Shown: positions 1-64,000, numbered from the stretch's first letter. The stretch: 64,000 bases of DNA from an uncultured Chloroflexia bacterium (GCA_963788375.1 CAWBGT010000027.1:679020-743019), one strand, 5' to 3'. Notes: a model not told the origin generated them from the letters alone. Translations and numbers: made by a program.

Positions 1-132
1 GATCTCGCCGCGGCCGGACGAGTACCGGGTCGAGAGGTACCGCTGGGTCATGTCCGTGCGCCGGGGACCCTCCATAGCATCCGGAACAGGACGTCGGCGA
101 TCATGGCCGGCGCCACCGGAGAAGCGCCACCG

Positions 133-387
133 ATGTCGGGCCTGCGAGATCGCTGCCCCGGATGCAGCCGTCGCCTCATCATCACGCGCTTCGACGCCAC
201 GTTCCGGCTGTCGGACCGGACCGAGCGGCTGTGCTTCGGCATCCCCGGTGGGCTGTGCGAGGACTGCCACCAGCTGTATATCGACCCGGAGCTGATCGAG
301 CTCCTGGACCTTGGCGATGGCCGGTGCGTGTTCGCGATCGAGAGCGACATCGTGATGCAGGAAGAGGCCTGGTCCTCCGCGGACTGA
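133..387 (+). CDS. YgiT-type (MqsA N-domain-like) zinc-finger protein, about 85 aa. The upstream context is cut off at the window edge.
   Basis: ORF 103..387; internal Met at 133 is preceded by a GGAGAA-like RBS. Cys pairs 'CPGCSRRL...CEDCHQLY' with a 'FGIPGGLCEDC' spacer match the YgiT-type zinc-ribbon pattern. Confidence 0.4.
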   Translation: MSGLRDRCPGCSRRLIITRFDATFRLSDRTERLCFGIPGGLCEDCHQLYIDPELIELLDLGDGRCVFAIESDIVMQEEAWSSAD

Positions 388-399
388 CGTCCCGAGGGT

Positions 400-1506
400 C
401 TACCTCGCGCGTCCGGCGCTTCCCGACGCCCGTGCGGCCCGATCCCGTGCGGCCGAAGTGCCATCCGAACCCGTCCTCCTGATTGCGACCCGGTCCTGCA
501 CCCAGAGCGTGAACGCCAGCCGGACCTGGCGCTCCGTGGACCCGGCATCAGCCGCACCCTTGATCCGTGCGTCGAGCTCGAGCACGCCCTCGAGCGCGTC
601 CTCGAGCTCCGGGAGCGCCCAGTGGCGGGCCTGGTCCACCAGCTTCTGGGCCCGGAACGGATGCCCGCCGATCGCCTTGACGATGTCCGGCGGCCGGCTG
701 CCGGCGGCGATGTGGTCCGCGGCGATCAGCAGCTCCCGGAGGCGGCGGTGGAGCTGGACGATGATGACCGGCAGCGGGGTGGTCTCCAGCAGCCGGTCCA
801 GCAGCGGCGCAGCGATGTCCGCCCGGCGCTCCGCGAGCGCGTCGAGCATCGCCCACGTGGAGTCGGGGACGACCTCAGGGACGAGCGCGCGGACGTCCGC
901 GATCGTGATCGGTGCCGCCTGGCGGTAGAGCGCCAGCTTCTCCAGCTCGGCGGCCGCCAGGGTGCCCTGCCGCTGGCGGTCCACGTCACCCTCGCTCACG
1001 AAGCCGCCGACGCGACGCGCAAGCTCATCCGCCGCGTCACGATCGAGCTCGAGGCCGCGTTCCGTGGCCAGGTTGCGCAGCCAGCCGGAGAGCTCGCCGG
1101 CCCTCGGCGCCGCGAAGGCCCTGGCCTCGCCACCGGCCCTGAGCACCGACGCCTCCAGCCCCTGGAGCATCGCGGCCCGCTTGGTCCCCGTGTCGCCCTG
1201 CTCCACGAACACGAGGGCGTTGCCCGGGGCGACCGTGCCGAGAGCCCGGTCCAGCGCCTCACGAGCGTCCTTGGACCGGACCAGCGCTCCCGGGTCCGTG
1301 ACCACGGCAACGCATCCGCCGCCGAACATCGGGGCCGTCCCGACGCGCTCGGCGATCTGGGCCGCGTTCGTCTCGACGCCCGTCACGCGCCAGCGGTCCG
1401 GCGCGGCACCGGTCTCCTCCTCCAGGCGCCGGGCCACCTTCGCCACTGCCTTGTCCAGCGCGTACCCGTCGCCGCCACGGTAGTAGGCGATGACCGGTGC
1501 CGTCAC
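400..1506 (-). CDS. holA: DNA polymerase III delta subunit (HolA).
   Basis: Translation 'VTAPVIAYYRGGDGYALDKAV...ELDARIKGAADAGSTERQVRLAFTLW' is typical of HolA. GTG start at 1506 is preceded by GGGAGG. A 4-nt overlap with the upstream HD gene indicates an operon. Confidence 0.8.
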   Translation of the reverse strand: MTAPVIAYYRGGDGYALDKAVAKVARRLEEETGAAPDRWRVTGVETNAAQIAERVGTAPMFGGGCVAVVTDPGALVRSKDAREALDRALGTVAPGNALVFVEQGDTGTKRAAMLQGLEASVLRAGGEARAFAAPRAGELSGWLRNLATERGLELDRDAADELARRVGGFVSEGDVDRQRQGTLAAAELEKLALYRQAAPITIADVRALVPEVVPDSTWAMLDALAERRADIAAPLLDRLLETTPLPVIIVQLHRRLRELLIAADHIAAGSRPPDIVKAIGGHPFRAQKLVDQARHWALPELEDALEGVLELDARIKGAADAGSTERQVRLAFTLWVQDRVAIRRTGSDGTSAARDRAARASGSAGRAR

Positions 1507-2126
1507 GCGGAGGCCTCCCGGATGGCCCGTCTCGACCAGCGGAGTCGGCGCACCTCGGAGGGGTCGACGCCGGCGGCCGCGCAGACCTCCCACTCGAGCG
1601 CAATGGCTCGCGCCTCCGTGCGGGCAAACGTCTCCTCGTCCCACGCCGTTCCGCCAGTCCGCTTGACCCGCACGCCCGATCCCGGCGGATAGCGGCGGTG
1701 CCACGAGGCGAAGCGCTCGGCCATGGACTCGAGCTGCTGGCCGGCCCGCTTGTCGGCGTAGGCGACGACCTTGGCCTCGATCGGTGCAGCCGCCAGGCGG
1801 GCGGCATCCGTGTCGTCGGCGAGGCGCGTCACGGGATGGTCGCGCACCAGCACAGCCAGCTCGCCGTGGCCACGAGTCTCGAGCCAAGCGGCCGAGCCGT
1901 CACCGTGGCGGATCCCTTCCTGGCGGCCAGCCGACAGCTTGTCGACGTCGTGGAGCAGGGCCGCGGTCTCGACGGCCAGGACGTCCATGGGGTGTCCCGC
2001 CCGCGCGATCGCGTGCGCCAGCCAGGACGCCACGTCGGCGACGGCGCACGCGTGGCGGAGGGACCATTCTGGCGGGTCCAGCGAGAGCAGCAGGCTGGCG
2101 GCCTCGCGGCGCGCCGGGATGGTCAT
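1503..2126 (-). CDS. HD-domain phosphohydrolase (YqeK-like).
   Basis: HD motif 'AALLHDVDK' with an upstream His (RHACAV). ATG at 2126 (M29 of the ORF); start could instead be at 2210. Translationally coupled to holA. Confidence 0.65.
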   Translation of the reverse strand: MTIPARREAASLLLSLDPPEWSLRHACAVADVASWLAHAIARAGHPMDVLAVETAALLHDVDKLSAGRQEGIRHGDGSAAWLETRGHGELAVLVRDHPVTRLADDTDAARLAAAPIEAKVVAYADKRAGQQLESMAERFASWHRRYPPGSGVRVKRTGGTAWDEETFARTEARAIALEWEVCAAAGVDPSEVRRLRWSRRAIREASA

Positions 2127-4581
2127 GGCATGAATCGTAGCCGGTGTCGGCGGCGCGGGCGATCCGGCGGCCCTCGAATGCCCGACGTCGGGCGCCTGAC
2201 GTCGTGACACCCAACCCGTCGGGACGGAGGTCTACCTCGATGCTGCCCTCGAGGTCCGTCCGATGGACCTGGGCACCCGCCTCACGGAGTCGCTCGAGCG
2301 TGGATGGGGCGGGGTGCCCGTAGTCGTTGTCCGCGCCGACCGAGATGAGGGCGAGGGCCGGCTGGGTCGCCGCCAGCAGGGCCGCGCTCGTCGCCGTCGC
2401 GCTCCCATGATGGGCAACCTTGAGGACGTCGAGATGCGGCAGTCCGCCCGCCACCAGCGCGGGATCGACGTCGTCCTCCGCGTCGCCGGTCAGCAGGAAC
2501 CGGCGCCCCTCGGCCTCGCCCAGGAGGATGATCGAGGTGTCGTTGATGCCGCGCCCCGTCGAGGCCGGCTGCGTGGGAACCCCGGGCGGCGGCCACAGCA
2601 CCCGGAACGCGATCTCGTCGAGGGTCACGCCGGCACCGGCGGCCAGGGTCGAGCGGGGTGGACCGTGCGCCAGGGCATCGTCCCAAGCCGCCCAGCCCGA
2701 CCCGGGACCGTGCATCCCGGGCTCGAAGACGCGGCCCACCCGGTATCGCTCCAGGACCCGCACGAGCCCCGCGACGTGGTCCTCGTGGGGGTGCGTGAGC
2801 ACGACCAGGTCGATCCGGCGATCCCACGGCGGGATGCGCGCGTCGAGCTCCACGATCAGCCGGTCCGGGTCTGGCCCGCCGTCGACCAGCATCCGGCCGC
2901 CGCCGCGGCTCTCGACCAGGATGGCGTCGCCCTGGCCGACGTCGAGCATCACGAGCCTGGTGGCGCGGCCGGTGGCATCGCCGAGGGCCAGGGTCGAGAC
3001 GGCAACGATCACGGCTGCCGCCCCGAGCACGAGCCGGTCCCGGCGCGACAGGCGCGGTGGTGCGGCCCGGCGTCCGGAGGCGCCAGGAGTGCCGTGTGCT
3101 CGTGGCCGGCTGGATCGTCGCCGCAACCGCTCCTTCGTCGCGCGCAGGAGACGCGGGGCGAGCAGCACGGCGGCCGCGGCACCGAGTGCGGCGACGCCTC
3201 CGGCCTCCGGAGGGATCGAGACGGCGGCGAAGGGCAGGCCCGCGGATGCCCGCACGACGGCCACCATCACGTGCAGGAGGAGCCACGCCGGGAGGCCCAG
3301 GAGCGTCGCGATGATGGCGGGCAACCCGAGCATCGCCGCCCCTCCGCCCGCCATGGCGAGCACGCCGGCACCCATGGCCGCGGGCACCAGGGGCACGACG
3401 GCGAGGTTGGTGACCGGAGCCACGAGCGAGAGCCGCCCGAAGGTCATCAGCACGTCTGGCAGCGTGGCGGCCTGGGCCGCGAGGGAGATCCCGAGCCCCT
3501 CGGCGAGCCACCCGGGCATGCGCCCACCGGCGAGGCCCCCGAACCAGCGGCCGAGCGGCGTGCCCCAGGCGAGCAACCCCGCCGTCGCGGCGACCGACAG
3601 GCGGAACCCGGCGTCGCCGATCATCGCCGGCTCCACGGCCGGCATGCCCACGGCGGCGAGCGCCAGCGCGGCCGGAGCCCGCGCCGCGCGCCCCGACTCA
3701 CGGGCGCCGAGCACCACCCCCGCCATGACGGCCGCCCGCACCACGGACGGCGACGCGCCCGCGGCGACGACGTAGGCCGCGATCGTGCCGGCCACCGCCA
3801 TGGCCACGACCCGCCGAGGCCGTCCGCGCATGACCGCGACCACGATCCCCGCCACGATCGCGATGTTCCAGCCCGAGATCGCGACCACGTGGCTGGTCCC
3901 CGCCGTGGCGAAGTCCGCCGCGAGCGCACGGTCCACGCGTTCGCGGAGGCCGATCAGGATCCCCGCCGCCAGCCCCGCCTCGGGCTCCGGGAGCGCGAGG
4001 CGCAGTGCGTCGCCGGCGGATTCCCGTGCCCGCTGGAGCGTGATCCCGTCGGAGGCTGTCACGATCCGGACCGAGGCCGCCCGCAGGCTGCCGGCGGCAC
4101 CCGTCCGCCGCAGGTACTCGCCGTACGGGTCGTCGTCCGGCGGTGGCCGGAGGCGGCCGCCCACCTCGATCAGGTAGCCCGATCGGACTGCCGGGAACGC
4201 TGGGAGCGTGGCCGCGACCGGCACCGGCCCAGGATCCACCTCCAGGTTCAGGCGGACGGTCTGCTGGCCGTCCAGCGGCGATCCCACGGCCACCACCTCG
4301 GCAGTCCACGGACCGGATCCCGTCGGCAGGGGTGGGGGCGGCGGCGCCGCCGGGCCGAGGAGGACGCGCATCCCGATCAGGAGCGCTCCCCCTCCGGCGG
4401 CAATCGTCGCGACCGCGGATCCGGCCCGCGGCGGACGGACCGCGAGCCCAAAGAGCAGGGCGACCAGCCCGGCCACGATGGGCACGACCGCGGGCAGGCT
4501 GAACCACGCCCAGGCTGCAGCCGCAGCGGCCCCGGCCGCCACCCAGGCGCCGCGAGGCACCCGGGCCGGCGCGCCGCTCAC
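1900..4581 (-). CDS. comEC: ComEC/Rec2 DNA-internalisation competence protein (membrane domain plus metallo-beta-lactamase domain). The 3' end is probably over-extended by a frame error.
   Basis: Multi-TM N-terminal region. MBL motif 'LVVLTHPHEDHVAGL...KVAHHGSATATS'. The last ~95 codons after '...IEVDLRPDGLGVTT' are low-complexity and overlap the HD gene in another frame. The ATG overlaps the comEA stop (ATGA). Confidence 0.8.
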   Translation of the reverse strand: MSGAPARVPRGAWVAAGAAAAAAWAWFSLPAVVPIVAGLVALLFGLAVRPPRAGSAVATIAAGGGALLIGMRVLLGPAAPPPPPLPTGSGPWTAEVVAVGSPLDGQQTVRLNLEVDPGPVPVAATLPAFPAVRSGYLIEVGGRLRPPPDDDPYGEYLRRTGAAGSLRAASVRIVTASDGITLQRARESAGDALRLALPEPEAGLAAGILIGLRERVDRALAADFATAGTSHVVAISGWNIAIVAGIVVAVMRGRPRRVVAMAVAGTIAAYVVAAGASPSVVRAAVMAGVVLGARESGRAARAPAALALAAVGMPAVEPAMIGDAGFRLSVAATAGLLAWGTPLGRWFGGLAGGRMPGWLAEGLGISLAAQAATLPDVLMTFGRLSLVAPVTNLAVVPLVPAAMGAGVLAMAGGGAAMLGLPAIIATLLGLPAWLLLHVMVAVVRASAGLPFAAVSIPPEAGGVAALGAAAAVLLAPRLLRATKERLRRRSSRPRAHGTPGASGRRAAPPRLSRRDRLVLGAAAVIVAVSTLALGDATGRATRLVMLDVGQGDAILVESRGGGRMLVDGGPDPDRLIVELDARIPPWDRRIDLVVLTHPHEDHVAGLVRVLERYRVGRVFEPGMHGPGSGWAAWDDALAHGPPRSTLAAGAGVTLDEIAFRVLWPPPGVPTQPASTGRGINDTSIILLGEAEGRRFLLTGDAEDDVDPALVAGGLPHLDVLKVAHHGSATATSAALLAATQPALALISVGADNDYGHPAPSTLERLREAGAQVHRTDLEGSIEVDLRPDGLGVTTSGARRRAFEGRRIARAADTGYDSCHDHPGAPRGRQPAALAGPARMVPPPRVRRRRRGVLAGARDRAGGTPHGRPGRRDRGPAPRRRQAVGWPPGRDPPR

Positions 4582-6732: not shown

Positions 6733-7399
6733 ATGGTGGTTACGACGCCAAGATGCCGAACCAAGCCCCCTCCACCCCCAGCCCACGTCCACGCCGCCAC
6801 TCTCGACGCCTGTCTCGAGTTCATCAACACGGTCGAGCTCACCGACGGCCGGCCCGAAGACCACCTGCCCACTGCCGATGATGCGGTCGCGTTCCTGGTG
6901 GACCGCGGCCTCGCACACGAGCAGGATCTCCAGCGGCAGGCAGACCGGGACGGCTCGCGCTGGCTGGCGCGGATCCAGGCGGCGCCGGCAGGCACTGCGC
7001 GACGTCTGGGACGCCCAGGTCGAGGGTCGCGCCGCCGCGGCCGAGGCGCTCGCCACGCTCAACGTGCTCCTCGATGGAGGTCCGCGGGTCGAGTTGCGGC
7101 CGGGGCCCATCGGGATCGAGGTCGCCCACCGGCACTCGGAGGACGACCCCACCGGCGAGGCACTGGCGCTGCTGGCGGCCCCGCTCGTCGAGGTGCTCGC
7201 CTCGGGCGCGACCGACCGCCTCAGGATCTGCGCCAACGACGGCTGCCGCTGGGTGTTCGAGGACACGTCGCGCGCGGGCCGCCGTCGCTGGTGCGACATG
7301 ACCACCTGCGGGAACCGCGCGAAGGCGCGGCGCTTCCGCTCGAAGGCGCGGAGCGACCACGCGGAGGAGGCGCTGCCCCCCTCGGGGGAGGGTCGGTGA
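6733..7399 (+). CDS. ABATE plus CGNR zinc-finger putative stress-responsive regulator, interrupted by a +1 frame change near 6985 (pseudogene or sequencing indel).
   Basis: The N-terminal ABATE-like part ('LDACLEFINTVELTDGRPEDHL') is in the frame of ORF 6733. The C-terminal part ('CANDGCRWVFEDTSRAGRRRWCDMTTCGNRAKARRFR') is in the frame of ORF 6527..7399. Confidence 0.6.
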
Positions 7400-13846: not shown

Positions 13847-15401
13847 TGTGGCCCCATCCGGCTCGGGTGCCCAGACGATGAACTCGCCATCGTCGACCAG
13901 CACCGCGCGATCCCCGGCCAGGAGCGAGGCGAGCATCTTGTCGTGGCGGTTCCGGGCCCGAAGCGTCGGCGACCATGGCGTGCGGTCCATGACGACATAC
14001 GCATTCGCGGGAGGGACCGGGCCGGCCATCAGGCGCCGGATGTCGGTTCGCGCGGCGAGTGGCGCCACCAGCCCCTCGTCTGCCGCAAGGATCGCTTCGG
14101 CAGGCACGATGGCGGCCGCCAACTCCAGTCCATCCAGCCGGGCAGGCCGGGCGGCGAACGCTGGGTCGCTCATGTCGAACGGCGGGATTGAGCCCTGGAC
14201 CCAGGCGCCGACCGCCGCCGGGATGATCAGCAGCAAGGCCAGCAGAGGAGCGAGCCGCCGGGTCTGGGAATCGGGGGCGCCGCGACCCGGCGCGTCCCGC
14301 GGTCGGCGACGCGGGCCCCGCCGCCACCTTCGCTCGGCGACCGCCAGTACCCGTCGCCCGCCGAACCCGGCGGCAACGATCAGCGGCACCACCAGGATCA
14401 GCCCGTACTGGAGCCGCAGGTTCGCCTGGAAGTCGTTGGCGGACAGGAGTGCGGCGGCCATCGGTGGCAGGGCCAGGAGCAGCCAGCGCGGACGGACCAG
14501 GGGCAGGCCGAGGAGGGCGACGACCATCCCGGCTGCGGCAAGCCACGGCGTGGCCCGGGCGATGTGGGCAACGACCGCGGCAGTCCGCTCGAACGGCGCC
14601 AGCAGGACGGCAAGCCCGCCGCCAAGCCAGGCGTAGTAGCGGTCGGTATCGGCCCCGGCGCCGTCGCGGATGGCCGGCATCACGAGGCCGAAGGCCGCGA
14701 TCGCCCAGGCGGCGGCCACGAGCACGAGGAACCGGCCCTGGCGGCGGGTCGAGCCGCGGCCCCGGACCGCCACCGCCAGTCCGACCACGGCGACCGCGTA
14801 GCCAACGTCCTCGCGGGTCGCGAGCGCCAGCAGCGCGAGCGCCCACATCGCGCGATGGCGCTTCGTGAGCCCCGCCCATCCGGCGAGGAGCGCGAGCGCG
14901 ATGCCCGCGGTCTCGGGATGGAAGTCGGCCCGGATGACGTCCTGTATCGTGCCCCACAGCGGGATCCCAATCGCCAGGACCGCGGCGAGCACCGGCCCGA
15001 ACTCGGCCGGGACGGAGCAGCGCGCGGAGGAACAGGAAGGTGGCCGGGATCAGCGCCGCGACCGACACGGCGTGGGCCAGGTTGAGGACGCGCACGTCCG
15101 GCCCGACGAGGCGCTCGATCGCGGCCGGGACCACCAGGATCGGCGAGAAGTGGAGCCCGAGGAACGACCCCTCGTGGAAGCTCGAGACCCAGCGACCGCT
15201 GTCGGCGACGTTCCAGACGACCTGCTGGAAGAAGGCCAGGTCGTATGGCGGGGCCGCGAGACCCACGGTGCGGCTCACGAGGAGTGCGGCCACCCAGGCC
15301 GCTGTCGCGATCGTCGCCAGCCCAACGAGGCCGGCCGGGATCGCCCCGCGCCCGAGCCCAGGGTTCACCCGGCTCCCGATCAGCCGGCCGCCGGAGCGGC
15401 G
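13842..15401 (-). CDS. DUF2079-family polytopic membrane protein, with an apparent frameshift near 15005.
   Basis: 'YDLAFFQQVVWNVADSGRWVSSFHEGSFLGLHFSPILV' is in the frame of the 1344-aa ORF. The continuation 'EFGPVLAAVLAIGIPLWGTIQDV...' is in the frame of ORF 13841..14992. Confidence 0.55.
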
Positions 15402-16418
15402 TGTCCGCTCGGAACGGGTCAGGAGTGGCTTCCCCGACGCGCGATAGCCATCCGCGATCCCCCGCGCCGCGGTCTCGATGGCCTGGGCAGCGGACAGCCG
15501 CGGCTCCCAGCCAAGGGCCCGCAGCGCCGAGGTCTCGAACTCGACATAGGGCGTGTCACCCGCCCAGCCGCCGCCACCGGGGCCGCGGCCCGCGTACGTC
15601 AGCTCGACCGACGCGGGCGCGAGTCCCAGGGCCTCGATCACGATCGCGGCCACGCGCTGGACGGTGACGGTCCCCTCGGTCCCGACGTTCAGGATCGTCA
15701 TCGGGGACCGCGCCGCCGCCGCAACTCCGCGCCGGATCCCGGCGACCAGGTCGTCCACGGCGATGTAGGGCTTCGCCTGGGTGCCGTCGCCCAGCATCTC
15801 GAGGCGGGTCGGGTCCCGCAGGAGCTTGACCACGAAGTCATGGACCACGCCATGGTTCGATCGCGGGCCGACCGTGTTGCCGAAGCGGAACGCGTGCGCC
15901 CGCCAGCCGTACAGGCTTGCGAAGCCCGAGATCAGCGCCTCGCCGGCAAGCTTCGCGGCCGCGTAGTGCGACTCCGGCAGCAGCGGGCCGTCGCCTTCCC
16001 CGGTCGGGATCCGGGCCGGGCGGCCGTAAACGACCCCGGAGGAGGCGAACCAGATCTCGTCAATCCCGACCGCGTGCATCGTCTCGCACACGAGTTCGGT
16101 GCCCACGACGCCGCTCGCGAAGTCCCGCTCGGGGTGGTCGAAGCCCCCGGCGATGTCTGTTCCCGATGCGAGGTGGACCACGCGACGGTGGCCGGCCATG
16201 GCGTCCCGGAGCGCGTCGCGGTCCGTGATGTCGCCGCGGACAAAGTCCAGGAGCGGGTCTCCGTCGAACCGGGTCGCCCAGTCCGGCTCCGCGGTCGAGA
16301 GGTTGTCGAAGACGGTGACGGGTGCCCCGTCACGCAGCAGCGATGCGACCACCTCGCCGCCGATGAACCCGGCGCCGCCGGTGACGAAGGTCCGGACCGG
16401 CTCCAGGCGGTCCGTCAT
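15402..16418 (-). CDS. NAD-dependent epimerase/dehydratase (SDR family). There is no in-frame stop before the DUF2079 region, so the 3' boundary is approximate.
   Basis: 'TFVTGGAGFIGGEVVASLL' Rossmann motif and an 'YAAAK' catalytic motif. ATG at 16418 overlaps the DoxX stop (ATGA). Confidence 0.7.
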
Positions 16419-16975: not shown

Positions 16976-17111
16976 GGATGCCCTCCCAGGAGCCTGAATT
17001 CAGTGAGCGTGTGGCTCCGACCTTAGCCCTGCCTCGTGACGCGCGGGTGACGATCCCGGGCGCCGACCCGGGCGCCGACCCGGGCGCCGACCCGGGTGGC
17101 CGCGCCGCCGC

Positions 17112-18889: not shown

Positions 18890-18994
18890 GGGTACTCCCT
18901 TGTTGAGACGGATCGGGGCTGAGGCTAAGGATATTGGGTGACGCCTCGATGACGACGGGGTGACCGCGCCTGGCCGGAGTGCCGCCGACGCCGC

Positions 18995-20075: not shown

Positions 20076-20200
20076 CCTCACGCCCATCCGACAGGCGGAG
20101 CAGCCGCTCGACGGTGCGCGCGCGCCCTTCCGGGATGGCGAGCACGACTTGGTGCCGCCCGCCGACGGCTCCTGACGTATCGGCCGCCAAGACTCGCACA

Positions 20201-20241: not shown

Positions 20242-20284
20242 ACAGCCCACCGGGCTGATCACCCCCGCGGGGGAGGAGTGCGGC

Positions 20285-21279: not shown

Positions 21280-21310
21280 GCCGGGCTCCGTTGACAGCCG
21301 GGCTCCGTTA
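21280..21310. repeat. 13-bp direct repeat GCCGGGCTCCGTT x2 (4-bp spacer) abutting the truncated lepB 5' end.
   Basis: Seen directly in the sequence. Confidence 0.6.
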
Positions 21311-21317
21311 GGTCGTC

Positions 21318-21691
21318 GTGTTCCGCCCGCCCCCCGCCTGGACCGACCGGCCCGAGCCATACATCAAGCGCGTCATCGGAGTCGGCGGCGACACCGTCGA
21401 GGTCCGCGACGGCCGGGTCTCCGTGAATGGCATGGTGCTCGACGAACGCTATCTGTTCCGCAACGACGCCGGCGTGATCGAGCCGACCGAGGCCGGTGAC
21501 CAGGCCCGCTGGGTCGTGCCAGACGATGAGCTGTTCGTGATGGGTGACCATCGCCAGGTGTCGGCAGACAGTCGCTGTTCGGTTCGATCCCCGTCTCGTC
21601 CGTGATCGGGCGAGGGGTTGTCCGATACTGGCCACTCCCGGCGTTCGGGATCGCTGAGACTCCGTCCTATGCGAACGTCCCAGTCCCTTGA
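21318..21691 (+). pseudogene. lepB: Signal peptidase I (LepB) remnant. Only the C-terminal half is present, and it also carries a +1 frameshift near 21575.
   Basis: 'YIKRVIGVGGDTVEVRDGRVSVNGMVLDERYL...VPDDELFVMGDHRQVSADSR' corresponds to SPase I boxes D and E. The catalytic Ser/Lys N-terminal half is absent. The shifted frame continues 'LFGSIPVSSVIGRGVVRYWP'. Confidence 0.7.
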
Positions 21692-24105: not shown

Positions 24106-24630
24106 GGGAGGCCTCCCGCGTCTCGCCGGCATCGCCGTTCCCGCCCATCGCCCGGCGCATGTGCGCCAGCGCCTCGCGGAGCTGGGTCTTCACGGTGTTC
24201 TCGCTGATCCCAAGCGCCTCGGCCACGTCACGTACTGACAGGTCAGCGTAGTAGCGCAGTACCACGGCAGCACGCATGCGCGGCGCGAGCCGGTCCACGC
24301 AGGACAGCAGGGTGAGGCGCTCGTCCTCGTCGGTCGGGCGCCCGGACGGTCCGGTACCACGCGGAGCTGGACGACGCGGGACGATGATCGCCGCACGCCG
24401 AGTGCCCGGTTGGTCGCGATGCGCAGGAGCCACGCCCGCAGCTTCTCCGGTTCCCGGAGCTGGTCGCCGCGATCGAGCGCGGTCAGCAAGGTGTCCACCA
24501 CCACGTCCTCCGCCGCCGCCCGATCCCGGAGGATCAGGTAGGCCACGCCCTGGATCTCGCGTCCGTACCGTGCCAGGAGGTCGTCGAGGACCTCGGGGCG
24601 GTGCTTGCGCAGGGCTTCCACGGTCATTGC
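24100..24630 (-). CDS. ECF (sigma-70 family) sigma factor with an apparent frameshift between region 2 and region 4 (~24330-24370).
   Basis: Region 2: 'DVVVDTLLTALDRG...LLRIATNRALGVRR' (frame of ORF 24190..24675). Region 4: 'ERLTLLSCVDRLAPRMRAAVVLRYYADLSVRDVAEALGISENTVKTQLREAL' (frame of ORF 24098..25066). Confidence 0.6.
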
Positions 24631-29953: not shown

Positions 29954-30190
29954 CCCGTCTGCTGCACGAGCATCCGCTGGTCGACGCGGAGCTGGACCCG
30001 GGAGGACGCCTTGTGGCGATCCGCTGGAACGGCCGGCGGGAGCCCGTCGAGGTCTGCAACCGCTGGCGGGTGGAGGAGTCCTGGTGGCGGGAGCCGATCG
30101 CCCGGGACTACTTCAAGGTGGTCGGGGACGTCGTGGCTGGCACTCGTCTACCTGGACCGGACGGCCGGGACGTGGCACCTGGAGCGGCTC
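29950..30190 (+). CDS. Small conserved-looking ORF (~80 aa) translationally coupled to imuB (ATGA overlap), with an apparent frameshift in a G-run near 30130.
   Basis: 'MTRLLHEHPLVDAELDPGGRLVAIRWNGRREPVEVCNRWRVEESWWREPIARDYFKVVGD' continues in the +1 frame as '...SWLALVYLDRTAGTWHLERLYD*'. Confidence 0.4.
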
Positions 30191-44535: not shown

Positions 44536-47063
<2,528 letters not shown>

Positions 47064-47115
47064 TCCTGGCCGGTCCGCGTCCCAGCTCACGGCGCGCGCT
47101 CTCCGGAGTCGCGCA

Positions 47116-47856
47116 GTGAGGCGCTTCGTGGACCCCGGCGCCGTGATGGCTGCCTGGGTCGGCCTCGGCATGGCCGTGACGATCGGGGTCTCGTTCCTGC
47201 TGGTGATCCCGATCGAGCCCGTCTACTGGTACCTCGCCCTGCCGGCGGGCCTGCTAATCGGCTACTACGCCAACGCGCGCTCCGAGCGGGCGGGCGGGCC
47301 GTGGAAGCGCATCCTGGCGAACGCCCTGTTCGCGGGCCTGGTCACGGGCGTCACCTACGCCGTCCTGCTGCTCGGCGTGAAGGCGCTGTTCTTCAATGTC
47401 GACGGCGGCTACCGGGACGCCTCGTCGGGCGGGCCGCTGACCTGCACGACCGGCGCCGACTGTGTCTACCAGCGGTACATCGCCGCGGGCCAGGGAGAAG
47501 CGTTCGAGGAGGCCGGCATCACCGACGTGGAGGCGTTCACCTCGTTCTACTGGGGCCAGCAGCTCTCGAACGCGGGCCTGACGTTCGTCCTCTCGACGGG
47601 CGGGGCGCTCCTCGGCGGCGTGATGTATGGCTTCACGAACCGGCGCAAGCCGGAACGACGCCGACGGGGATCGAGCCCACGGGCGTCCCCCAGGGCTGAG
47701 CCGGGTCCGGGCCTCGGCGTGGCCCGTCGCGACCCACCGGGCCCATCCCGGCCTGCCCGGATCCTGGCCCAGCACGCTGCCCTGCCGGAGAGCGGAATCC
47801 ACCCGGCCCACCGCTCTCCCCGGGCCATGCCCGGATCACCCGCGATCCGACCCTGA
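47116..47856 (+). CDS. Membrane protein (hypothetical); the 3' end is uncertain (low-complexity tail after ~47650).
   Basis: TM segments 'MAAWVGLGMAVTIGVSFLLVI', 'LLIGYYAN', 'ALFAGLVTGVTYAVLLLGV', 'LTFVLSTGGALLGGVMYGF'. Confidence 0.35.
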   Translation: MRRFVDPGAVMAAWVGLGMAVTIGVSFLLVIPIEPVYWYLALPAGLLIGYYANARSERAGGPWKRILANALFAGLVTGVTYAVLLLGVKALFFNVDGGYRDASSGGPLTCTTGADCVYQRYIAAGQGEAFEEAGITDVEAFTSFYWGQQLSNAGLTFVLSTGGALLGGVMYGFTNRRKPERRRRGSSPRASPRAEPGPGLGVARRDPPGPSRPARILAQHAALPESGIHPAHRSPRAMPGSPAIRP

Positions 47857-48848: not shown

Positions 48849-49040
48849 GGTGGCTGATCTCCGTTCCGTGTGTGTGCGAGTGAATCACGACGCGCGCGAG
48901 CGAAGCCTGCCCGAGGCGCGACGGCGAATGGTAGCAGAGCCGCCCCGAATCGGGCCAGCCGTGATTTAGGGTTGGGACGGTGGCAGCGCCGATCGGCTAA
49001 CCTCGGGTCCGAGTTGGCCGAAGGGGAGATCGCGGGCCCG

Positions 49041-52595: not shown

Positions 52596-52613
52596 GCCTG
52601 GTCGGCCGATCGG

Positions 52614-54272
52614 TCAGCCCTGTCGCATGCGCCCCCTGCGGTAGCGCCGGATCAGGGCCGCCGTCGACGGGTCGTGGACAAGCTCCGGATCCGCCCCGTC
52701 ATCCGCCAGCTCTGGGGCGATTCGCGTCGCGAGGGCCTTGCCCAGCTCCACGCCCCACTGGTCGAACGAATCGATCCCCCAGATCACGCCCTGGACGAAC
52801 ACCTTGTGCTCGTACAGCGCGACGAGCGAGCCAAGCATCCGTGGCGTCAGCCGGGCGGCGAGGAGCACGGACGTCGGCCGGTTGCCCTCGAACACGCGGG
52901 CGTCCACCTGGTGCGCGGGGACGCCGTCGGCGATGACCTCGGCGCGGGTCTTGCCGAACGCGAGGGCCTCGGCCTGGGCGAATAGGTTGGCGTTGAGCAG
53001 GTCGTGGTGGTCGCCGACCTCCGTGGTCGGGTTCACGAAGCCGATGAGGTCCGCCGGGACGATGCGCGTTCCCTGGTGGAGCAGCTGGTAGTAGGCATGC
53101 TGGCCGTTGGTTCCGGCCGTGCCCCACACGATCGGACCGCTGTCGCAGGTCAGCCGGGTACCGTCGAGGCGCACCGACTTCCCGTTCGATTCCATGTCCA
53201 GCTGCTGGAGATAGGCGGGGAAGCGCGACAGCTCCTGGCTGTAGGGCAGGACGGCGTGCGTCTCGAACCCGAACGCGTTTCCGTACCAGATGCCAAGCAG
53301 GGCCATGAGCACGGGCAGGTTCTGGCCCAGCGGCGCCTCGAGGAAGTGCTCGTCCATGTCCCGGAAGCCGGCGAGCATCTCGCGGAAGTCGTCCGGCCCG
53401 ATGGCCAGCATCAGCGAGAGGCCGACGGCCGAGTCCATCGAGTACCGGCCGCCGACCCAGTCCCAGAAGCCGAACATGTTGACGTTGTCGATGCCGAACT
53501 CGGCCACCTTGGTGGCATTGGTGCTGACGGCCACGAAGTGCCGCGCGACCGCGGCCTGGTCGCCCAACCCGGCCAGGAGCCAGTCTCGCGCCGTGCGGGC
53601 GTTGGTCAGCGTCTCGAGCGTGGTGAAGGTCTTGCTGGCGACCACGAACAGTGTTTCGGCGGGGTCGAGGTCCAGCGTCGCGTCGCGGATGTCGGTGCCA
53701 TCGATGTTGGACACGAACCGGAAGCGCATGGACCGGTCCGTGTAGTGGCGCAGCGCCTCGGTCGCCATCGCCGGCCCCAGGTCAGACCCGCCGATGCCGA
53801 TGTTGACGATGTTGCGGATGGGCTTGCCGGTGAACCCCTTCCACTCGCCCCCGCGGACCCGCAGGGCGAACGCCGCCATCCGATCCAGCACCTCGTGAAC
53901 GTCCGGGACGACATCGTGGCCATCGACGACGACGTGCCGGTCCGCCGGCGTGCGCAGGGCCGTATGGAGAACGGCCCGGTCCTCGGTCTCGTTGATGTGG
54001 GCGCCGGCATACATGTCGGCCCGGCGCTCCTCCACGCGCGCAGCCCTCGCCAGCGCGAGCAGGCCGGCGATGGTCTCGTCCGTGATCCGGTGCTTGCTGT
54101 AGTCGAGGAAGAGGTGCGCGCCCTCGGCAGTGAACCGGGTGGCACGGTCCGGGTCCTCCGCGAACAGGTCCCGCAGGTGGCGGTCGCGCATCGCGGCGTG
54201 GTGCGCGAGGAGGGCCGTCCATTCCGGGGTCTGGTCGAAGGGGGTCGTGGTCGTCGTCTCGTCCGCACTCAT
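52614..54272 (-). CDS. pgi: Glucose-6-phosphate isomerase.
   Basis: '[13 protein letters not shown]', '[13 protein letters not shown]', '[11 protein letters not shown]'. Start could be M1 (54302) or M11 (54272). Confidence 0.9.
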
Positions 54273-54341
54273 GGGGTCATCGTAGACCCCGCGGCGTGGC
54301 ATCGCCCGAGCCCGGCATCGTGTTCCTGCCCGCGGGTCGCC

Positions 54342-54992
54342 CTACCTGCCCGGGACGGCGGCCCAGCCGTCGGTATCCATTGCGTGGAGCTCGCCCAGCC
54401 CGATGTCGAACCAGCAGCCGGCGAGCGACAGGGTCCCAGCCTGCTCGCGGGACCGGATCCAGGGGAAGGTGCGGAGGTTGACGATCGATTGCTCCACCGA
54501 TCGCAGCTCCAGGTCGCGACGGCCCTGCGCCGGATCCCCGGTGCTCCCCGGGCCGCCCGGGTCCAGCTCCCCGACCAGGTCACGCAGGCCTCCGACCCAG
54601 TTGCCCAGAAAGTCCGTTGCGGTGAGTGGAGCCGCATCGTCGAAGGCGACGCCGACCCCTCCGCATCGGCCATGGCCCATCACCACGATCGAACCCACCC
54701 CGAGCTTGAGCACCGCGAACTCCAGCGCCGCGCTGGCCGCATGGCTCCGGGCGTCCGGGGCGTAGACCGGCACCAGCGCGGCCACGTTGCGGATCACGAA
54801 CAGCTCGCCCGGGTTGGCGTCGAAGATCGTCTCCGGCCCCGACCGCGAATCCGAGCAGGCGATGACCATGGTGGACGGGCTCTGCCCCTCCTCGGCCATC
54901 TGCCGGTAGCGCTCGTGCTCGGTCGCGAAGCGCGTGCTGCGGAACCTCCGGAAGCCGGCAACGAGGTGGGCGGGCAGGGCTGGGTCGGGCAC
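54342..54992 (-). CDS. can: Beta-class carbonic anhydrase.
   Basis: 'VIACSDSRSGPETIF', 'GELFVIRNVAALVP', 'VMGHGRCGGV'. Confidence 0.85.
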   Translation of the reverse strand: MPDPALPAHLVAGFRRFRSTRFATEHERYRQMAEEGQSPSTMVIACSDSRSGPETIFDANPGELFVIRNVAALVPVYAPDARSHAASAALEFAVLKLGVGSIVVMGHGRCGGVGVAFDDAAPLTATDFLGNWVGGLRDLVGELDPGGPGSTGDPAQGRRDLELRSVEQSIVNLRTFPWIRSREQAGTLSLAGCWFDIGLGELHAMDTDGWAAVPGR

Positions 54993-55119
54993 GAGGTGAT
55001 GGTAGCGGTCCGATGCGGGTCCGACGCTCCGCCCACGGTTGACGGCTCCCCGACTACGATGGGGATGCTCCTGCTGCCGCTCGATGACGCAGGAACGGCG
55101 CAGGAGGTCTCACGCGACG

Positions 55120-55464
55120 ATGCCCGCTGTCCCCGCGCCGATCATGGTCCGGCGCCTCCTGCTGGGCGTCGTCTGGCTGGGCATCGCGCTTGCGTTCCTC
55201 CGCCTGTTCCTGGGCTCCACGCGGCCGCACGCCGTGGACCTGCATCCGCTCCTCGCCGCGGCCTCGCTCGGCGCACTGGTCCTGGCCCTCGCGGTCGGCG
55301 CGTGGCCGCGTACGGCCCGCCCCTACGGCTTTGCCGGCCTGCTGATCGTGGCCGCTGCGGCCGTGCTGCTGCTGGCCGGGACGGCGCACGAGACGGGCCT
55401 TGTGCTGGGGGTGCTGGGTGCCCTGGCCGCTCTCGTCGCGCTTCGCCAGCCACCCCGCGGGTGA
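55120..55464 (+). CDS. Small 3-4-TM membrane protein (hypothetical); start is uncertain.
   Basis: Hydrophobic segments. AGGAGG lies 13 nt upstream of the ATG at 55120. Confidence 0.35.
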   Translation: MPAVPAPIMVRRLLLGVVWLGIALAFLRLFLGSTRPHAVDLHPLLAAASLGALVLALAVGAWPRTARPYGFAGLLIVAAAAVLLLAGTAHETGLVLGVLGALAALVALRQPPRG

Positions 55465-55546
55465 CGCCCCCCACGACACACCCGCGCGGGGGGGTTGACT
55501 GACCGGCATCGCGGACTAGACTCCAGATCGGCCACGTGGAAGGATC

Positions 55547-56332
55547 ATGTTCGAGCGTCCCGCGATCATGAAGCTCGTGAACGGCCACCCGGCGCTGCTG
55601 CTGGCAGTTGCGCTCGTCGTCGGGGCGTGTTCCGGCTCGGCGCCGGCCCCGGTGTCGGGCGAACCATCCCCGTCCGCGTCGCTCCCGCCCGCGTCGTCCC
55701 CGGCAACGGCCGTCACCACCCCTGGCGCCCCGGCCTCGTCGCCGCCCGCCGCGCCGGGTCCATCGGAATCCCCTGAACCTCCGGCGCCGTCGGCGACCGC
55801 GCTGGCCTGGCCGTCGGGAGTTCCCGTCCTCAACCCGGAGCGCTGCCCCGACGTCCTGCCGGCCGATGCCCATCAGACTGCCGACGGCGTGCAGATCGAC
55901 GGGGACGCCGGCTTCATCGCCCACGTCGAGAAGGCGCTCGCGGTGCTCAAGGCCAAGGCCGCGGATGCCTACGCCGACGTGCGCACCGCGGTCGTGATGA
56001 TCCGGCAGGTCGATGCCTTCTCGGGCATGTGCTACAACAACGGCGCCTACCGCGTCGGCGAGGAGACGGCGCACGCTCCCGGATACGCGGAGGCAGCCCA
56101 GGTCGTCTGGCTTGCGGGAACCATCGTCCACGACGCCTGCCACCGGGCGCGCTTCGTCGCCGGAGAGGCCCCGAGCGGCAAGGACGCCGAGCTGGCCTGC
56201 CTCAAGCTGCAGGCTGCGGCGCTGCGCAAGATCGAGAAGGGCACGGCCTTCGCCAAGTATGTGCAGGGCCTGATCGACGGCGCGGACGATCCCGCCAACC
56301 AGTACTGGACAAACGCGAACCGCCACTGGTAG
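55547..56332 (+). CDS. Lipoprotein (hypothetical) with a Pro/Ser-rich linker.
   Basis: Lipobox 'LVVGAC'. GGAAGGA RBS. Confidence 0.5.
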   Translation: MFERPAIMKLVNGHPALLLAVALVVGACSGSAPAPVSGEPSPSASLPPASSPATAVTTPGAPASSPPAAPGPSESPEPPAPSATALAWPSGVPVLNPERCPDVLPADAHQTADGVQIDGDAGFIAHVEKALAVLKAKAADAYADVRTAVVMIRQVDAFSGMCYNNGAYRVGEETAHAPGYAEAAQVVWLAGTIVHDACHRARFVAGEAPSGKDAELACLKLQAAALRKIEKGTAFAKYVQGLIDGADDPANQYWTNANRHW

Positions 56333-62139: not shown

Positions 62140-62146
62140 GCCGGCC

Positions 62147-62576: not shown

Positions 62577-62647
62577 TTGACACCCCCGCGGGGCGATTGC
62601 TAGACTGCCAGCAATCTTCGTTAGCACTCTCATGGTGCGAGTGCTAA
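62577..62647 (+). promoter_or_regulatory. hrcA promoter (-35 TTGACA, 18-nt spacer, -10 TAGACT) with an inverted repeat GATTGCT-N8-AGCAATC overlapping the -10, followed by a perfect CIRCE element TTAGCACTC-N9-GAGTGCTAA (62621-62647).
   Basis: Seen directly in the sequence. The CIRCE consensus is matched 9/9 on both arms. Confidence 0.85.
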
Positions 62648-62665
62648 CCAATGCAGGAGAGCCCC

Positions 62666-63730
62666 ATGGCGCGTCGCGTGCGTCGCTCCAGCGGCCCCCT
62701 TGACCTTCGCTCCCAGGCGATCCTCCGGGCCGTCATCGAGGAATACGTCACCAGCGCAACGCCCGTGGGCAGCCATGCCCTGGTGGAGCGCTACCGGCTG
62801 GGCGTGTCCAGCGCCACTGTTCGCGCCGTGCTGGCGGAGCTCGAGGCGGCCGGGCTGCTGATGCATCCGCACACGTCGGCGGGCCGCGTCCCCACCGAGC
62901 AGGGCTACCGCTACTTCGTCGAGTCGATCGTGGAATCCGTGCCGCTGCCACCCGTGGAGCAGCTGATGATCCGCCACCAGTTCGGACAGGTGGAGTACGC
63001 GAGCGAGCACTGGTTCCGGCTGGCCGCCACCACGCTGGCGTCCGTCACGCGGGCCGCCGGGCTGGCGACCCCGGCCAAGCCGAGCGCTGCCCACCTGCGC
63101 CGCCTGGATCTGGTGAGCATCAGTGACCGCCTCGCGAGCCTGATCCTGGTCCTGCGCGAGGGCGCCCTCAAGCAGGTGCTGATCACGTTGGATCGCCCGA
63201 CGGAGCAGGACGAGCTGTCCGCCGTCGCGAACCTTCTCAACGTCCTGCTCGATGGCCTGACCGCCACCGAGGCGGCCGGCGTCCTGGCCGCGCTGGACAC
63301 CGCGGATCCCACCGCCGATCTTCCCCGCCGGGTGGGCGAGCGCGTCGTCCGGGCCCTGGAGGAGTTCGACGGGGCCGCCATCGAGGAGCTGTTCAGCGAC
63401 GGCCTGCTCAACGTCATGGCCGCTCCCGAGTTCGCCCAGAGCGAGAAGCTCCGGCGCGTGTTCGCGGCCCTCGAGAACCGCGCCTACCTGGCCCAGCTGA
63501 TCGACGGCGTCGCCGGCTCCGGCCGGGTGTGCGTCTTCATCGGAAGCGAGAACCCGGCCGAGGAGATGGCCGACGTGTCCCTCGTGCTCGCCCCGTACGG
63601 GCGGCCCGGCCGCGCGGTCGGCGTCGTCGGCGTGCTGGGGCCCACCCGGATGGCCTACCCGCAGGCCATCGGCACCGTGCGCTTCGTGTCCGGGCTCCTC
63701 AACGAGCTGACGGATCACCTCTATGCCTGA
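62666..63730 (+). CDS. hrcA: Heat-inducible transcription repressor HrcA.
   Basis: 'ILRAVIEEYVTSATPVGSHALVERY...VSSATVRAVLAELEAAGLL'. AGGAGA RBS. CIRCE upstream. Confidence 0.9.
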   Translation: MARRVRRSSGPLDLRSQAILRAVIEEYVTSATPVGSHALVERYRLGVSSATVRAVLAELEAAGLLMHPHTSAGRVPTEQGYRYFVESIVESVPLPPVEQLMIRHQFGQVEYASEHWFRLAATTLASVTRAAGLATPAKPSAAHLRRLDLVSISDRLASLILVLREGALKQVLITLDRPTEQDELSAVANLLNVLLDGLTATEAAGVLAALDTADPTADLPRRVGERVVRALEEFDGAAIEELFSDGLLNVMAAPEFAQSEKLRRVFAALENRAYLAQLIDGVAGSGRVCVFIGSENPAEEMADVSLVLAPYGRPGRAVGVVGVLGPTRMAYPQAIGTVRFVSGLLNELTDHLYA

Positions 63731-63757
63731 CCACGCCACCCCTGCGACCCGGAGATC

Positions 63758-64000
63758 CATGAACCGCAAGACCCGCGCCCAGGAGCGCATCGATGAGCTC
63801 GACGTCTCCCCGGCAGCCCTCACCGAGCAGCTCGACACCCTGCGAGCCGAGCGCGATGCCGCGACCGCCCAGTCGGAGGAGTACCTCGTCGCGCTCCAGC
63901 GCGAGCGCGCGGAGTTCACCAACTTCAAGCGCCGCACCGCCGAGGAGCGCCAGCGCGACCTCGGGCTCGCCGGGGTGGACCTGATCGCCAAGGTCCTCAA
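63758..64000 (+). CDS. grpE: GrpE nucleotide exchange factor (5' partial; runs off the window).
   Basis: Hand translation 'MNRKTRAQERIDELDVSPAALTEQLDTLRAERDAATAQSEEYLVALQRERAEFTNFKRRTAEERQRD'. GGAGA RBS. Confidence 0.75.

What the first reader, a model, noticed from the sequence alone, without database searches (positions are those of the whole stretch)
1..64000. Recurrent single-base frame breaks in otherwise intact genes
Frame disruptions occur in the comEC 3' end (~2190), the CGNR regulator (~6985), DUF2079 (~15005), the ECF sigma (~24350), the imuB-coupled small ORF (~30130) and the lepB remnant (~21575). Several are within G or C runs. Either the assembly carries homopolymer indel errors, or this lineage is accumulating pseudogenes. 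The two explanations lead to different annotations.
Basis: seen in the sequence. Interest (0 to 1): 0.5.

Follow-up and report, generated by a model that had tools for sequence, protein, structure and literature searches.

The report
Probable long-read assembly indel errors
Six genes in this soil Chloroflexota genome fragment are each split by one extra or missing base, and the evidence points to leftover consensus errors in a long-read metagenome assembly rather than genes dying in nature, so the genes should be annotated as intact pending read-level checks.

Summary
I found a sixth at the epimerase 3' end (15406, +1). The comEC site (~2190) is not a break. It is an out-of-frame overlap with a downstream HD-domain gene that short-read relatives also have. 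Only one site touches a run of four or more identical bases, so "homopolymer error" is inaccurate. Assembly error is the best explanation (~0.78). Every break is private to the window. All other coding indels against relatives are multiples of three. There are no nonsense codons. DUF2079 shows no relaxed constraint after its break. Related long-read (Flye-style/MFD) assemblies carry the same kind of stray 1-nt indels, including in leuS and holA, while short-read relatives carry none. The window's own fragments sit on a 1.24-Mb public contig. The 5' truncation of lepB is a separate structural lesion. The clustering of all breaks in the first 31 kb is unexplained. Raw reads are needed for proof.

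The parts
6976..6990 (+). One extra base in the ABATE/zf-CGNR regulator gene (about 6733-7399). Upstream codons are in frame +0 and downstream codons in frame +1.
   Evidence: The L001 protein matches frame 1 up to 6975 and frame 2 from 6953. The DNA alignment with L001, L012 and L002 puts one extra window base here. The repaired ORF reads ...WLARIQAARQALRDVWDA... and has the same length as L001 across the junction. Pfam finds ABATE positions 41-130 and zf-CGNR only in frame +1.
15003..15005 (-). One extra base in the DUF2079 membrane-protein gene (about 15368 down to 13844).
   Evidence: The Pfam DUF2079 profile is split between two frames. Intact homologs of 513-527 aa cover 97-99% of the repaired protein. 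L081 and L082 proteins switch frame at 15003-15010. The extra base is private to the window in the three-way and five-way DNA alignments. The repaired junction LLRPGRFGPVLA matches LLRPSRFGPALA in the relatives.
15405..15407 (-). One extra base near the 3' end of the NAD-dependent epimerase gene (16427 down to about 15380). It removes the stop codon and fuses the ORF in frame to DUF2079.
   Evidence: It is a private +1 against L081, L082, L083 and L084. Removing it restores a TGA at 15382-15380 and gives a 348-aa product, against 349-350 aa in L081/L082.
21571..21575 (+). One missing base in the signal peptidase I (lepB) remnant (21312-21688).
   Evidence: GDHRQVSADSR in one frame continues as LFGSIPVSSVIGRGVVRYWPL in the -1 frame. 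The repaired 126 aa match 213-214-aa homologs at 75-85% identity over their full length.
21281..21312 (+). 5' truncation point of lepB. Homology starts sharply at residue 88 (VVVF) at position 21312, the preceding codon is TAG where homologs have CAG, and a 12-nt direct repeat (CCGGGCTCCGTT, twice) abuts the breakpoint. This is a structural lesion and is separate from the 1-nt breaks.
   Evidence: The N-terminal 87 aa of the homologs (TM helix and catalytic-Ser box) have no match in any frame anywhere in the window. The 19.5-21.8 kb segment is absent from L083 and L084. The sequence is shown.
24345..24348 (-). One missing base in the ECF sigma factor gene (24627 down to 24101), in the linker between region 2 and region 4.
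   Evidence: Sigma70_r2 and Sigma70_r4_2 are in different frames. The L013, L007 and L084 proteins split across two frames. The DNA alignment with the intact 179-aa gene of L084 shows a 1-nt gap in the window. The repaired product is 176 aa.
30121..30131 (+). One extra base in a conserved 82-aa ORF (29950-30199) whose ATG overlaps the imuB stop codon (ATGA). The stretch contains the GGGG run at 30124-30127.
   Evidence: The L014, L020 and L009 proteins continue from frame +3 (KVVG) into frame +1 (WLALVYLDR...LERLYD*). The window has 10 nt where the relatives have 9. The repaired ORF is 82 aa.
1903..2126 (-). NOT a break. The 3' end of comEC overlaps the downstream HD-domain gene (2126 down to 1506) in a different frame.
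   Evidence: The Lactamase_B domain of ComEC is complete, and the HD domain lies in a separate ORF. The same read-through is present in L001, L002, L003, L012 and L018. The ComEC C-terminal motif is kept even in L013, which lacks the HD gene.
17076..17078 (.). A private extra base in the intergenic DNA between the radical SAM and DoxD genes. It could be an error or natural variation.
   Evidence: Five-way alignment.
18981..18983 (.). A private extra base in the intergenic DNA between the rhodanese and methyltransferase genes. It could be an error or natural variation.
   Evidence: Five-way alignment.
47640..47650 (+). A possible, unproven -1 break at the 3' end of a membrane-protein gene (about 47060-47856).
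   Evidence: The coding signal ends at 47647. The in-frame tail is 70 aa rich in Arg, Pro and Ser, whereas the -1 frame gives a short Gly/Thr/Pro tail with a stop, like the relatives' tails. The tail is not conserved, so this cannot be decided.

Best explanation
The six single-base frame breaks are most likely residual consensus errors in a long-read (probably Nanopore, Flye-type) metagenome assembly, not mutations present in the organism. Where read depth is low, the consensus keeps a stray extra base or loses one. The gene caller then splits one gene into two ORFs, or in the epimerase case reads through a lost stop codon. In the cell these genes are expected to be intact. SHOWN: the breaks exist, each is exactly one base, each is private to this assembly, and the same lesion type is tied to long-read assemblies in this lineage. 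INFERRED: the window's own assembly is long-read-only, and the reads would not support these base calls. The 5' truncation of lepB is a different kind of lesion (a genomic rearrangement or an assembly mis-join) and this explanation does not cover it.
For: (1) Lesion spectrum. All six coding lesions are +/-1 nt. Every other coding indel against close relatives is a multiple of three (66, 36, 9 and 6 nt). There are no in-frame stop codons; the two apparent cases are adjacent genes that share a frame. (2) Each repair restores an ORF whose length and ends match intact relatives: epimerase 348 vs 349-350 aa, ECF sigma 176 vs 179 aa, DUF2079 about 508 vs 513-527 aa, small ORF 82 aa. (3) No decay. 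After its break, DUF2079 has 0.076 private amino-acid changes per column and a window/L081 ratio of 1.16, within the range of the intact neighbouring genes (0.043-0.095; ratios 1.0-1.8). The broken lepB part is 85% identical to intact homologs. (4) Association with technology. In a 7-kb five-way alignment, the short-read contig L081 has no private non-3n indels and L082 has them only in intergenic DNA or at alignment ends. The Flye-style contigs L083 and L084 have about 16 and about 20, mostly +1 insertions in runs of 1-2 bases. The window has four of the same type. Across 16 of the window's intact proteins, long-read-type loci show 5 frame splits in 102 kb, including the essential genes holA (L012) and leuS (L084). 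Short-read-type loci show none in 156 kb; under equal rates the chance of that split is about 0.01. (5) Source. The window's own fragments P0012 (383 aa) and P0201 (95 aa) are public (NCBI and ENA) on a 1,239,055-bp contig. The nearest GTDB relatives are Microflora Danica long-read MAGs, which were made with Flye --meta, one round of Medaka and no short-read polishing (PMC12313526). Nanopore bins below about 40x coverage keep indels that fragment gene calls (PMC9262707).
Against: There are no reads and no same-species second assembly. The closest non-self homologs are only 82-85% identical, so no base call could be checked directly. The record's identity and sequencing platform could not be retrieved. 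All the breaks lie in the first 31 kb, although 31-64 kb was checked with relatives and by domain continuity; if errors were uniform, the chance of that is about 0.013. All the broken genes are plausibly dispensable, and no housekeeping gene in the window is hit (about 0.08 by chance). The window's rate (about 1.1 per 10 kb of coding sequence) is about three times that of the MFD representative MAGs sampled.
Confidence: 0.78

Rival explanations
1. The frameshifts are real and very recent mutations. This lineage, or the dominant strain in the sample, is losing accessory regulatory and envelope genes (an ECF sigma, a CGNR regulator, the epimerase-DUF2079 operon, the imuB partner ORF and a lepB paralogue), perhaps after a mutator episode or under relaxed selection.
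For: All the broken genes are plausibly dispensable, and no housekeeping gene in the window is hit (leuS, holA, gap, pgk, eno, rpsT and lepA are all intact). The breaks cluster in the part of the window that is not syntenic with relatives and contains island-like inserts. lepB carries a genuine-looking 5' truncation as well as its 1-nt deletion, so at least one gene here has two lesions.
Against: Each gene has a single 1-nt lesion, with no nonsense codons and no other non-3n indels. There is no relaxation of constraint after the DUF2079 break. None of the lesions is shared with any relative. Six of the eight private 1-nt events are insertions outside homopolymers, which matches the noise in L083/L084 rather than slippage at repeats. 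The 31-64 kb half also holds more than 20 kb of dispensable genes with no break. Related long-read assemblies show the same lesions in essential genes.
Confidence: 0.15
2. A mixture: most of the 1-nt breaks are assembly errors, but the lepB remnant, including its 1-nt deletion, is a true decaying pseudogene left by a rearrangement at the edge of a 2.3-kb inserted segment.
For: There is a sharp homology boundary at 21312, the N-terminal 87 aa are absent from the whole window, a 12-nt direct repeat abuts the breakpoint, and the 19.5-21.8 kb segment is missing in L083/L084.
Against: The remaining 126 aa are 85% identical to intact homologs and open to the normal stop once one base is restored, so any decay is minimal. 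A long-read mis-join could also create the sharp boundary. This reading is compatible with the best explanation rather than opposed to it.
Confidence: 0.5
3. The breaks are programmed ribosomal frameshift sites or phase-variable contingency loci used for regulation.
For: None beyond the existence of +/-1 frame changes.
Against: Homologs of all six genes are single uninterrupted ORFs in relatives. There are no long homopolymer or repeat tracts at the sites. The junctions fall in poorly conserved linkers, not at conserved slippery motifs.
Confidence: 0.01

Closest known systems
Residual indel errors in Nanopore/Flye-Medaka metagenome assemblies that fragment gene calls (Sereika et al. 2022, PMC9262707; MFD-LR catalogue, PMC12313526)
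   Same: Single-base indels are private to one assembly and split otherwise conserved genes. They are seen in sister long-read assemblies of the same lineage, including in essential genes, and are absent from short-read assemblies. The source contig is megabase-sized.
   Different: The literature stresses homopolymer-length errors. Here most events are stray bases in runs of 1-3, and insertions outnumber deletions. The platform of the window's own assembly could not be verified.
Pseudogene accumulation in decaying genomes (for example Mycobacterium leprae and recent host-restricted symbionts; from my own knowledge)
   Same: Multiple disrupted genes within a short stretch, mostly in accessory functions.
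   Different: Decaying genomes show mixed lesions (nonsense codons, larger deletions, IS insertions, several hits per gene) and relaxed constraint. Here there is one 1-nt lesion per gene, constraint is normal, and only lepB has a second, structural lesion.
Programmed +1/-1 ribosomal frameshifting (prfB, dnaX, IS3 transposases; from my own knowledge)
   Same: A single-base frame change is needed to read the full protein.
   Different: The frame change is not conserved in orthologues, there is no slippery site or stimulatory element, and the six genes are unrelated.

Membership tests
Long-read assembly consensus indel artefact | Lesions are single-base (rarely 2-base) indels | tested here: met
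   All six coding breaks and both intergenic events are +/-1 nt.
Long-read assembly consensus indel artefact | Lesions are private to the assembly, and orthologues elsewhere are intact | tested here: met
   Relatives have single ORFs at all six sites.
Long-read assembly consensus indel artefact | The same lesion class is enriched in long-read assemblies of related genomes compared with short-read assemblies | tested here: met
   L083 and L084 have about 16 and about 20 private non-3n indels, against none in L081 and none in coding sequence in L082, over 7 kb. There are 5 frame splits in 102 kb of long-read-type loci and none in 156 kb of short-read-type loci.
Long-read assembly consensus indel artefact | The source assembly is long-read-only or unpolished | tested here: inconclusive
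   The window's own fragments sit on a 1,239,055-bp NCBI/ENA contig, and the nearest relatives are MFD Nanopore MAGs. No accession or platform could be retrieved.
Long-read assembly consensus indel artefact | The base calls are not supported by accurate reads | not testable with these tools
   No reads and no same-species second assembly are available.
Genuine pseudogenes (gene decay) | A mixed lesion spectrum: nonsense codons, non-3n indels of various sizes, multiple hits per gene | tested here: not met
   There are no in-frame stops, each gene has only one 1-nt lesion, and all other coding indels are multiples of three. The exception is lepB, which also has a 5' truncation.
Genuine pseudogenes (gene decay) | Relaxed selective constraint downstream of the lesion | tested here: not met
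   After its break, DUF2079 has 0.076 private changes per column and a ratio of 1.16, the same as intact neighbours. The lepB fragment is 85% identical to intact homologs.
Genuine pseudogenes (gene decay) | Lesions confirmed by independent sequence data | not testable with these tools
   No reads or same-species assemblies are available.
Homopolymer slippage / phase-variable contingency locus | The indel lies in a long mononucleotide or short tandem repeat tract | tested here: not met
   Run lengths at the sites are 1-4, and only 30124-30127 is a run of four.
Programmed ribosomal frameshift | The frameshift position is conserved in orthologues | tested here: not met
   Orthologues are uninterrupted ORFs.

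The most novel reading that the evidence does not exclude
The base calls are correct. A free-living soil Limnocylindria-type Chloroflexota population has very recently acquired six independent single-base frameshifts, clustered in a 25-kb accessory region, that knock out an ECF sigma factor, a CGNR regulator, an epimerase-DUF2079 envelope operon and the small partner ORF of the imuA'-imuB-dnaE2 mutagenesis cassette. That would point to a recent mutator episode or a regional relaxation of selection.
Probability: 0.12. Interest if true: 0.35.

Novelty: not a real feature. Interest (0 to 1): 0.12.

Why it matters
The value is practical. If the breaks are taken at face value, about 10% of the genes in this window would be annotated as pseudogenes or fragments. 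One chimeric 1344-codon ORF (epimerase + DUF2079 N-terminus + out-of-frame read-through + GT2-DUF2064) would be called, and an ECF sigma, a CGNR regulator and the imuB partner ORF would be lost from functional inventories of a poorly known soil lineage. Treating them as consensus errors, and repairing or flagging them, gives the correct gene content. The case also shows two things. In very GC-rich long-read MAGs the residual errors are not confined to homopolymers. And very long overlapping ORFs (comEC/HD, imuA'/imuB) can look like frameshifts without being frameshifts.

Tried and rejected
(1) Strand and frame calling from the GC3 maximum and minimum alone was too noisy, so I replaced it with a self-trained codon model and Viterbi trace. 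(2) I first assumed the window was actinobacterial because of its 72% GC. That was wrong: LeuS relatives are Chloroflexota of the Limnocylindria/CSP1-4 type. (3) Exact-protein look-ups to find the source record or a second assembly failed: the EamA protein was not on record, P0012 was not retrievable, and the cluster tables carry no accessions. (4) The 4-kb open frame at 12396-16454 looked like several lost stop codons. Part of it is a genuine GT2-DUF2064 fusion, part is the two +1 errors, and part is a chance open frame in GC-rich DNA. (5) Viterbi frame switches at 1540, 13856, 20914 and 28637 are ordinary gene boundaries or conserved overlaps, not breaks. The blips inside the 38155-41787 ORF are compositional. 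(6) Same-frame ORF pairs that might have been nonsense mutations (PGI/carbonic anhydrase at 54342; lipoprotein/LepA at 56330) are separate complete genes. (7) The 241-aa S20 ORF is not a read-through, because the Ala/Lys-rich tail keeps a coding signal. (8) Substitution periodicity at the comEC/HD junction was abandoned because DNA identity is only about 70% with many gaps; I used protein and frame comparison across relatives instead. (9) My first constraint test on DUF2079 used wrong frame coordinates and was redone. (10) The apparent two-frame match at 21.99-22.48 kb comes from miscalled ORFs in the error-laden L083/L084 contigs. The window has an intact small secreted-protein ORF there. (11) CCGG proximity is 5/8 against a 26% background (P=0.03), but the test was post hoc and nine motifs were tried, so it is not significant. 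(12) Pfam and NCBIfam give no family for the imuB-coupled small ORF.
Full report
WHAT THE WINDOW IS. The window is 72% GC throughout. A LeuS-anchored scan of species-representative genomes shows it is not actinobacterial. It belongs to Chloroflexota of the Limnocylindria/CSP1-4 type. The best relatives are only 78% identical in LeuS, and most of them are Microflora Danica (MFD) long-read MAGs. Because raw ORF lists are useless at this GC content, I trained a codon model on seven long ORFs and traced the coding frame with a six-frame Viterbi pass. I then tested every same-strand frame switch with Pfam and with proteins and DNA from relatives.

CHECKING THE SIX LISTED SITES. Five are real single-base breaks.
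- CGNR regulator. The L001 orthologue matches frame 1 up to 6975 and frame 2 from 6953. DNA alignment with three relatives shows one extra window base within 6976-6990. The repaired protein reads WLARIQAARQALRDVWDA, the same length as L001 across the junction.
- DUF2079. The Pfam profile is split between two frames. Homologs of 513-527 aa cover 97-99% of the repaired protein. The syntenic short-read contigs L081 (JGI) and L082 (SPAdes) place one extra window base at 15003-15005.
- ECF sigma. Regions 2 and 4 are in different frames. The intact 179-aa gene of L084 shows a single missing base at about 24347.
- imuB-coupled ORF. Relatives continue from KVVG in one frame into WLALVYLDR...LERLYD* in the next. 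The window has 10 nt where they have 9, within 30121-30131. After repair it is an 82-aa ORF whose ATG overlaps the imuB stop codon.
- lepB remnant. GDHRQVSADSR continues as LFGSIPVSSVIGRGVVRYWPL in the -1 frame, so one base is missing at 21571-21575.

The sixth site, comEC ~2190, is not a break. ComEC's domains are complete, and an HD-domain gene (ATG at 2126) starts in another frame. The comEC frame simply has no stop codon until 1903. The same read-through and the conserved overlap sequence TGYDxxHDxPGAPRGR occur in L001, L002, L003, L012 and L018, including the short-read assemblies. The ComEC C-terminal motif persists even in L013, which lacks the HD gene. By my own estimate from GC3 of about 0.93, stops in that offset frame should occur roughly once per 200 codons, so long read-throughs are unremarkable.

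A private extra base at 15406 removes the epimerase stop codon. Deleting it restores a TGA at 15382-15380 and a 348-aa product, against 349-350 aa in L081/L082. That base, together with the +1 at 15003 and a genuine GT2-DUF2064 fusion gene (495-520 aa in relatives), explains the odd 1344-codon open frame at 12393-16427. Two further private +1 bases lie in intergenic DNA (17077 and 18982). A -1 near 47640-47650 is possible but unprovable, because that tail is not conserved.

ERROR OR BIOLOGY? No reads and no same-species second assembly could be found. The closest non-self homologs are 82-85% identical, so the argument is indirect. Five lines of evidence converge.
1. Lesion spectrum. There are six +/-1 lesions, no nonsense codons, and every other coding indel against relatives is a multiple of three.
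2. Each repair restores a gene whose ends and length match its orthologues.
3. There is no decay. With L082 as outgroup, DUF2079 downstream of its break has 0.076 private amino-acid changes per column and a window/L081 ratio of 1.16. That is indistinguishable from five intact neighbouring genes. The lepB fragment is 85% identical to intact homologs.
4. The lesion type tracks the sequencing technology. In a five-way alignment of 7 kb, the short-read contig L081 has no private non-3n indels and L082 has none in coding sequence. The Flye-style ENA contigs L083 and L084 have about 16 and about 20, mostly +1 insertions outside homopolymers. That is the same signature as the window's four events, and L084 even splits leuS. 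Using 16 of the window's intact proteins as probes, long-read-type loci show five frame splits in 102 kb (holA in L012, imuB in L008, imuA' in L020, leuS and comEA in L084). Short-read-type loci show none in 156 kb, which has a probability of about 0.01 under equal rates.
5. The source. The window's own fragments P0012 and P0201 are public on a 1,239,055-bp contig. The MFD-LR catalogue that supplies its nearest relatives was assembled with Flye --meta and one Medaka round, without short-read polishing (PMC12313526). Nanopore bins below about 40x coverage are known to keep indels that fragment gene calls (PMC9262707).

CAVEATS. All six breaks and both intergenic events lie in the first 31 kb. 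The 31-64 kb half was checked with short-read metagenome relatives and by domain continuity, and it has at most one doubtful case. Under a uniform error rate the probability of that is about 0.013. The pseudogene hypothesis does not explain it either, because the second half also contains more than 20 kb of dispensable genes. A local dip in read depth, or strain heterogeneity over the non-syntenic 12-31 kb segment, is the obvious untested explanation. All the broken genes are dispensable types (about 0.08 by chance). The platform of the source record could not be verified. A post-hoc CCGG association (5/8 sites, P=0.03 uncorrected) is not significant.

THE lepB REMNANT IS A SEPARATE MATTER. 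Homologs are 213-214 aa long. The window matches residues 88-213 only, starting sharply at 21312. A TAG stands where homologs have CAG, and a 12-nt direct repeat abuts the boundary. The N-terminal 87 residues, which include the catalytic-Ser box, are nowhere in the window. The 19.5-21.8 kb segment that carries the remnant, together with an XRE-type HTH gene, is absent from L083 and L084. This is either a real truncation or an assembly mis-join. It is not a base-call error.

VERDICT. The most probable cause of the single-base breaks is residual long-read consensus error (confidence about 0.78). Genuine recent frameshifts remain possible (about 0.15). Programmed frameshifting is excluded by the uninterrupted orthologues. 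The genes should be annotated as intact or frameshift-suspect, not as pseudogenes, until reads are inspected. Interest is low, and the value lies in annotation hygiene.

Noticed in passing
window 1503-4581 (-): The comEC ORF runs about 75 codons past the ATG (2126) of a downstream HD-domain gene (2126 down to 1506) in a different frame. All relatives examined show the same thing. In the short-read contigs L002 and L003 the comEC frame stays open right through holA (1431-1487 codons). This is probably a consequence of stops being rare in that offset frame at GC3 of about 0.93, but the overlap sequence is well conserved.
   Followed up: yes
window 27628-28914 (+) and 28640-29953 (+): The RecA-like imuA' ORF extends about 270 nt past the imuB start codon, in another frame. 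Relatives' imuA' ORFs align to the same end, so the long overlap appears to be conserved. A C6 run lies at 28617.
   Followed up: partly
window 29950-30199 (+): A Trp-rich 82-aa ORF (after repair) is translationally coupled to imuB through an ATGA overlap. It is 57-78% identical in L009, L014 and L020 and has no Pfam or NCBIfam family. It may be an undescribed partner of the imuA'-imuB-dnaE2 cassette in this lineage. dnaE2 lies 2.2 kb further on (32404-36531), separated by a minus-strand ORF and a HAD hydrolase gene.
   Followed up: partly
window 12399-13844 (-): This is a natural fusion of a family-2 glycosyltransferase with a DUF2064/TIGR04282-like domain (482 aa). The short-read relatives L081 and L082 have the same fusion (495-520 aa). 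It sits in a conserved block of rhodanese, methyltransferase, radical SAM, DoxD, epimerase and DUF2079 genes.
   Followed up: yes
window 19500-21810: A 2.3-kb segment is absent from L083 and L084. It carries two ORFs of unknown function, an XRE-type HTH gene (about 20915-21168) and the 5'-truncated lepB. A 12-nt direct repeat (CCGGGCTCCGTT, twice, 21281-21309) abuts the truncation point.
   Followed up: partly
window 48123-48848 (-): The ribosomal protein S20 gene encodes 241 aa: the S20 domain (residues 11-94) followed by an Ala/Lys/Thr-rich tail of about 145 aa that keeps a coding signal in the same frame.
   Followed up: partly
window 48870-56332: In several relatives rpsT and lepA are adjacent. 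The window has about 7.3 kb between them: a 1241-codon ORF with zinc-ribbon, adenylate/guanylate cyclase, AAA and TPR domains, followed by pgi, a beta-carbonic anhydrase and a putative lipoprotein.
   Followed up: partly
window 42852-43016 (+): A conserved ORF of about 50 aa (64-85% identical in about ten metagenome relatives) lies in a stretch that my codon model called non-coding, between a PNP_UDP_1 phosphorylase gene and gap.
   Followed up: no
L012 ~21080; L008 ~440; L020 ~4425; L084 ~14010 and ~19290: Related long-read MAGs and contigs carry their own frame splits, in holA, imuB, imuA', leuS and comEA respectively. L083 and L084 have 2-3 stray 1-nt indels per kb. The same caution therefore applies to public long-read assemblies of this lineage in general.
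   Followed up: yes
window: the eight 1-nt indel sites: CCGG lies within 6 nt of 5 of the 8 sites, against a 26% background (P=0.03 uncorrected; post hoc, with nine motifs tried). This may hint at methylation-linked basecalling error, but it is not significant as it stands.
   Followed up: partly
P0014 (877 aa, ENA, 7.3-kb contig): A relative's protein carries both epimerase and DUF2079 domains in one ORF, like the window's artefactual read-through. I did not check whether that is a real fusion or the same kind of error in another assembly.
   Followed up: no
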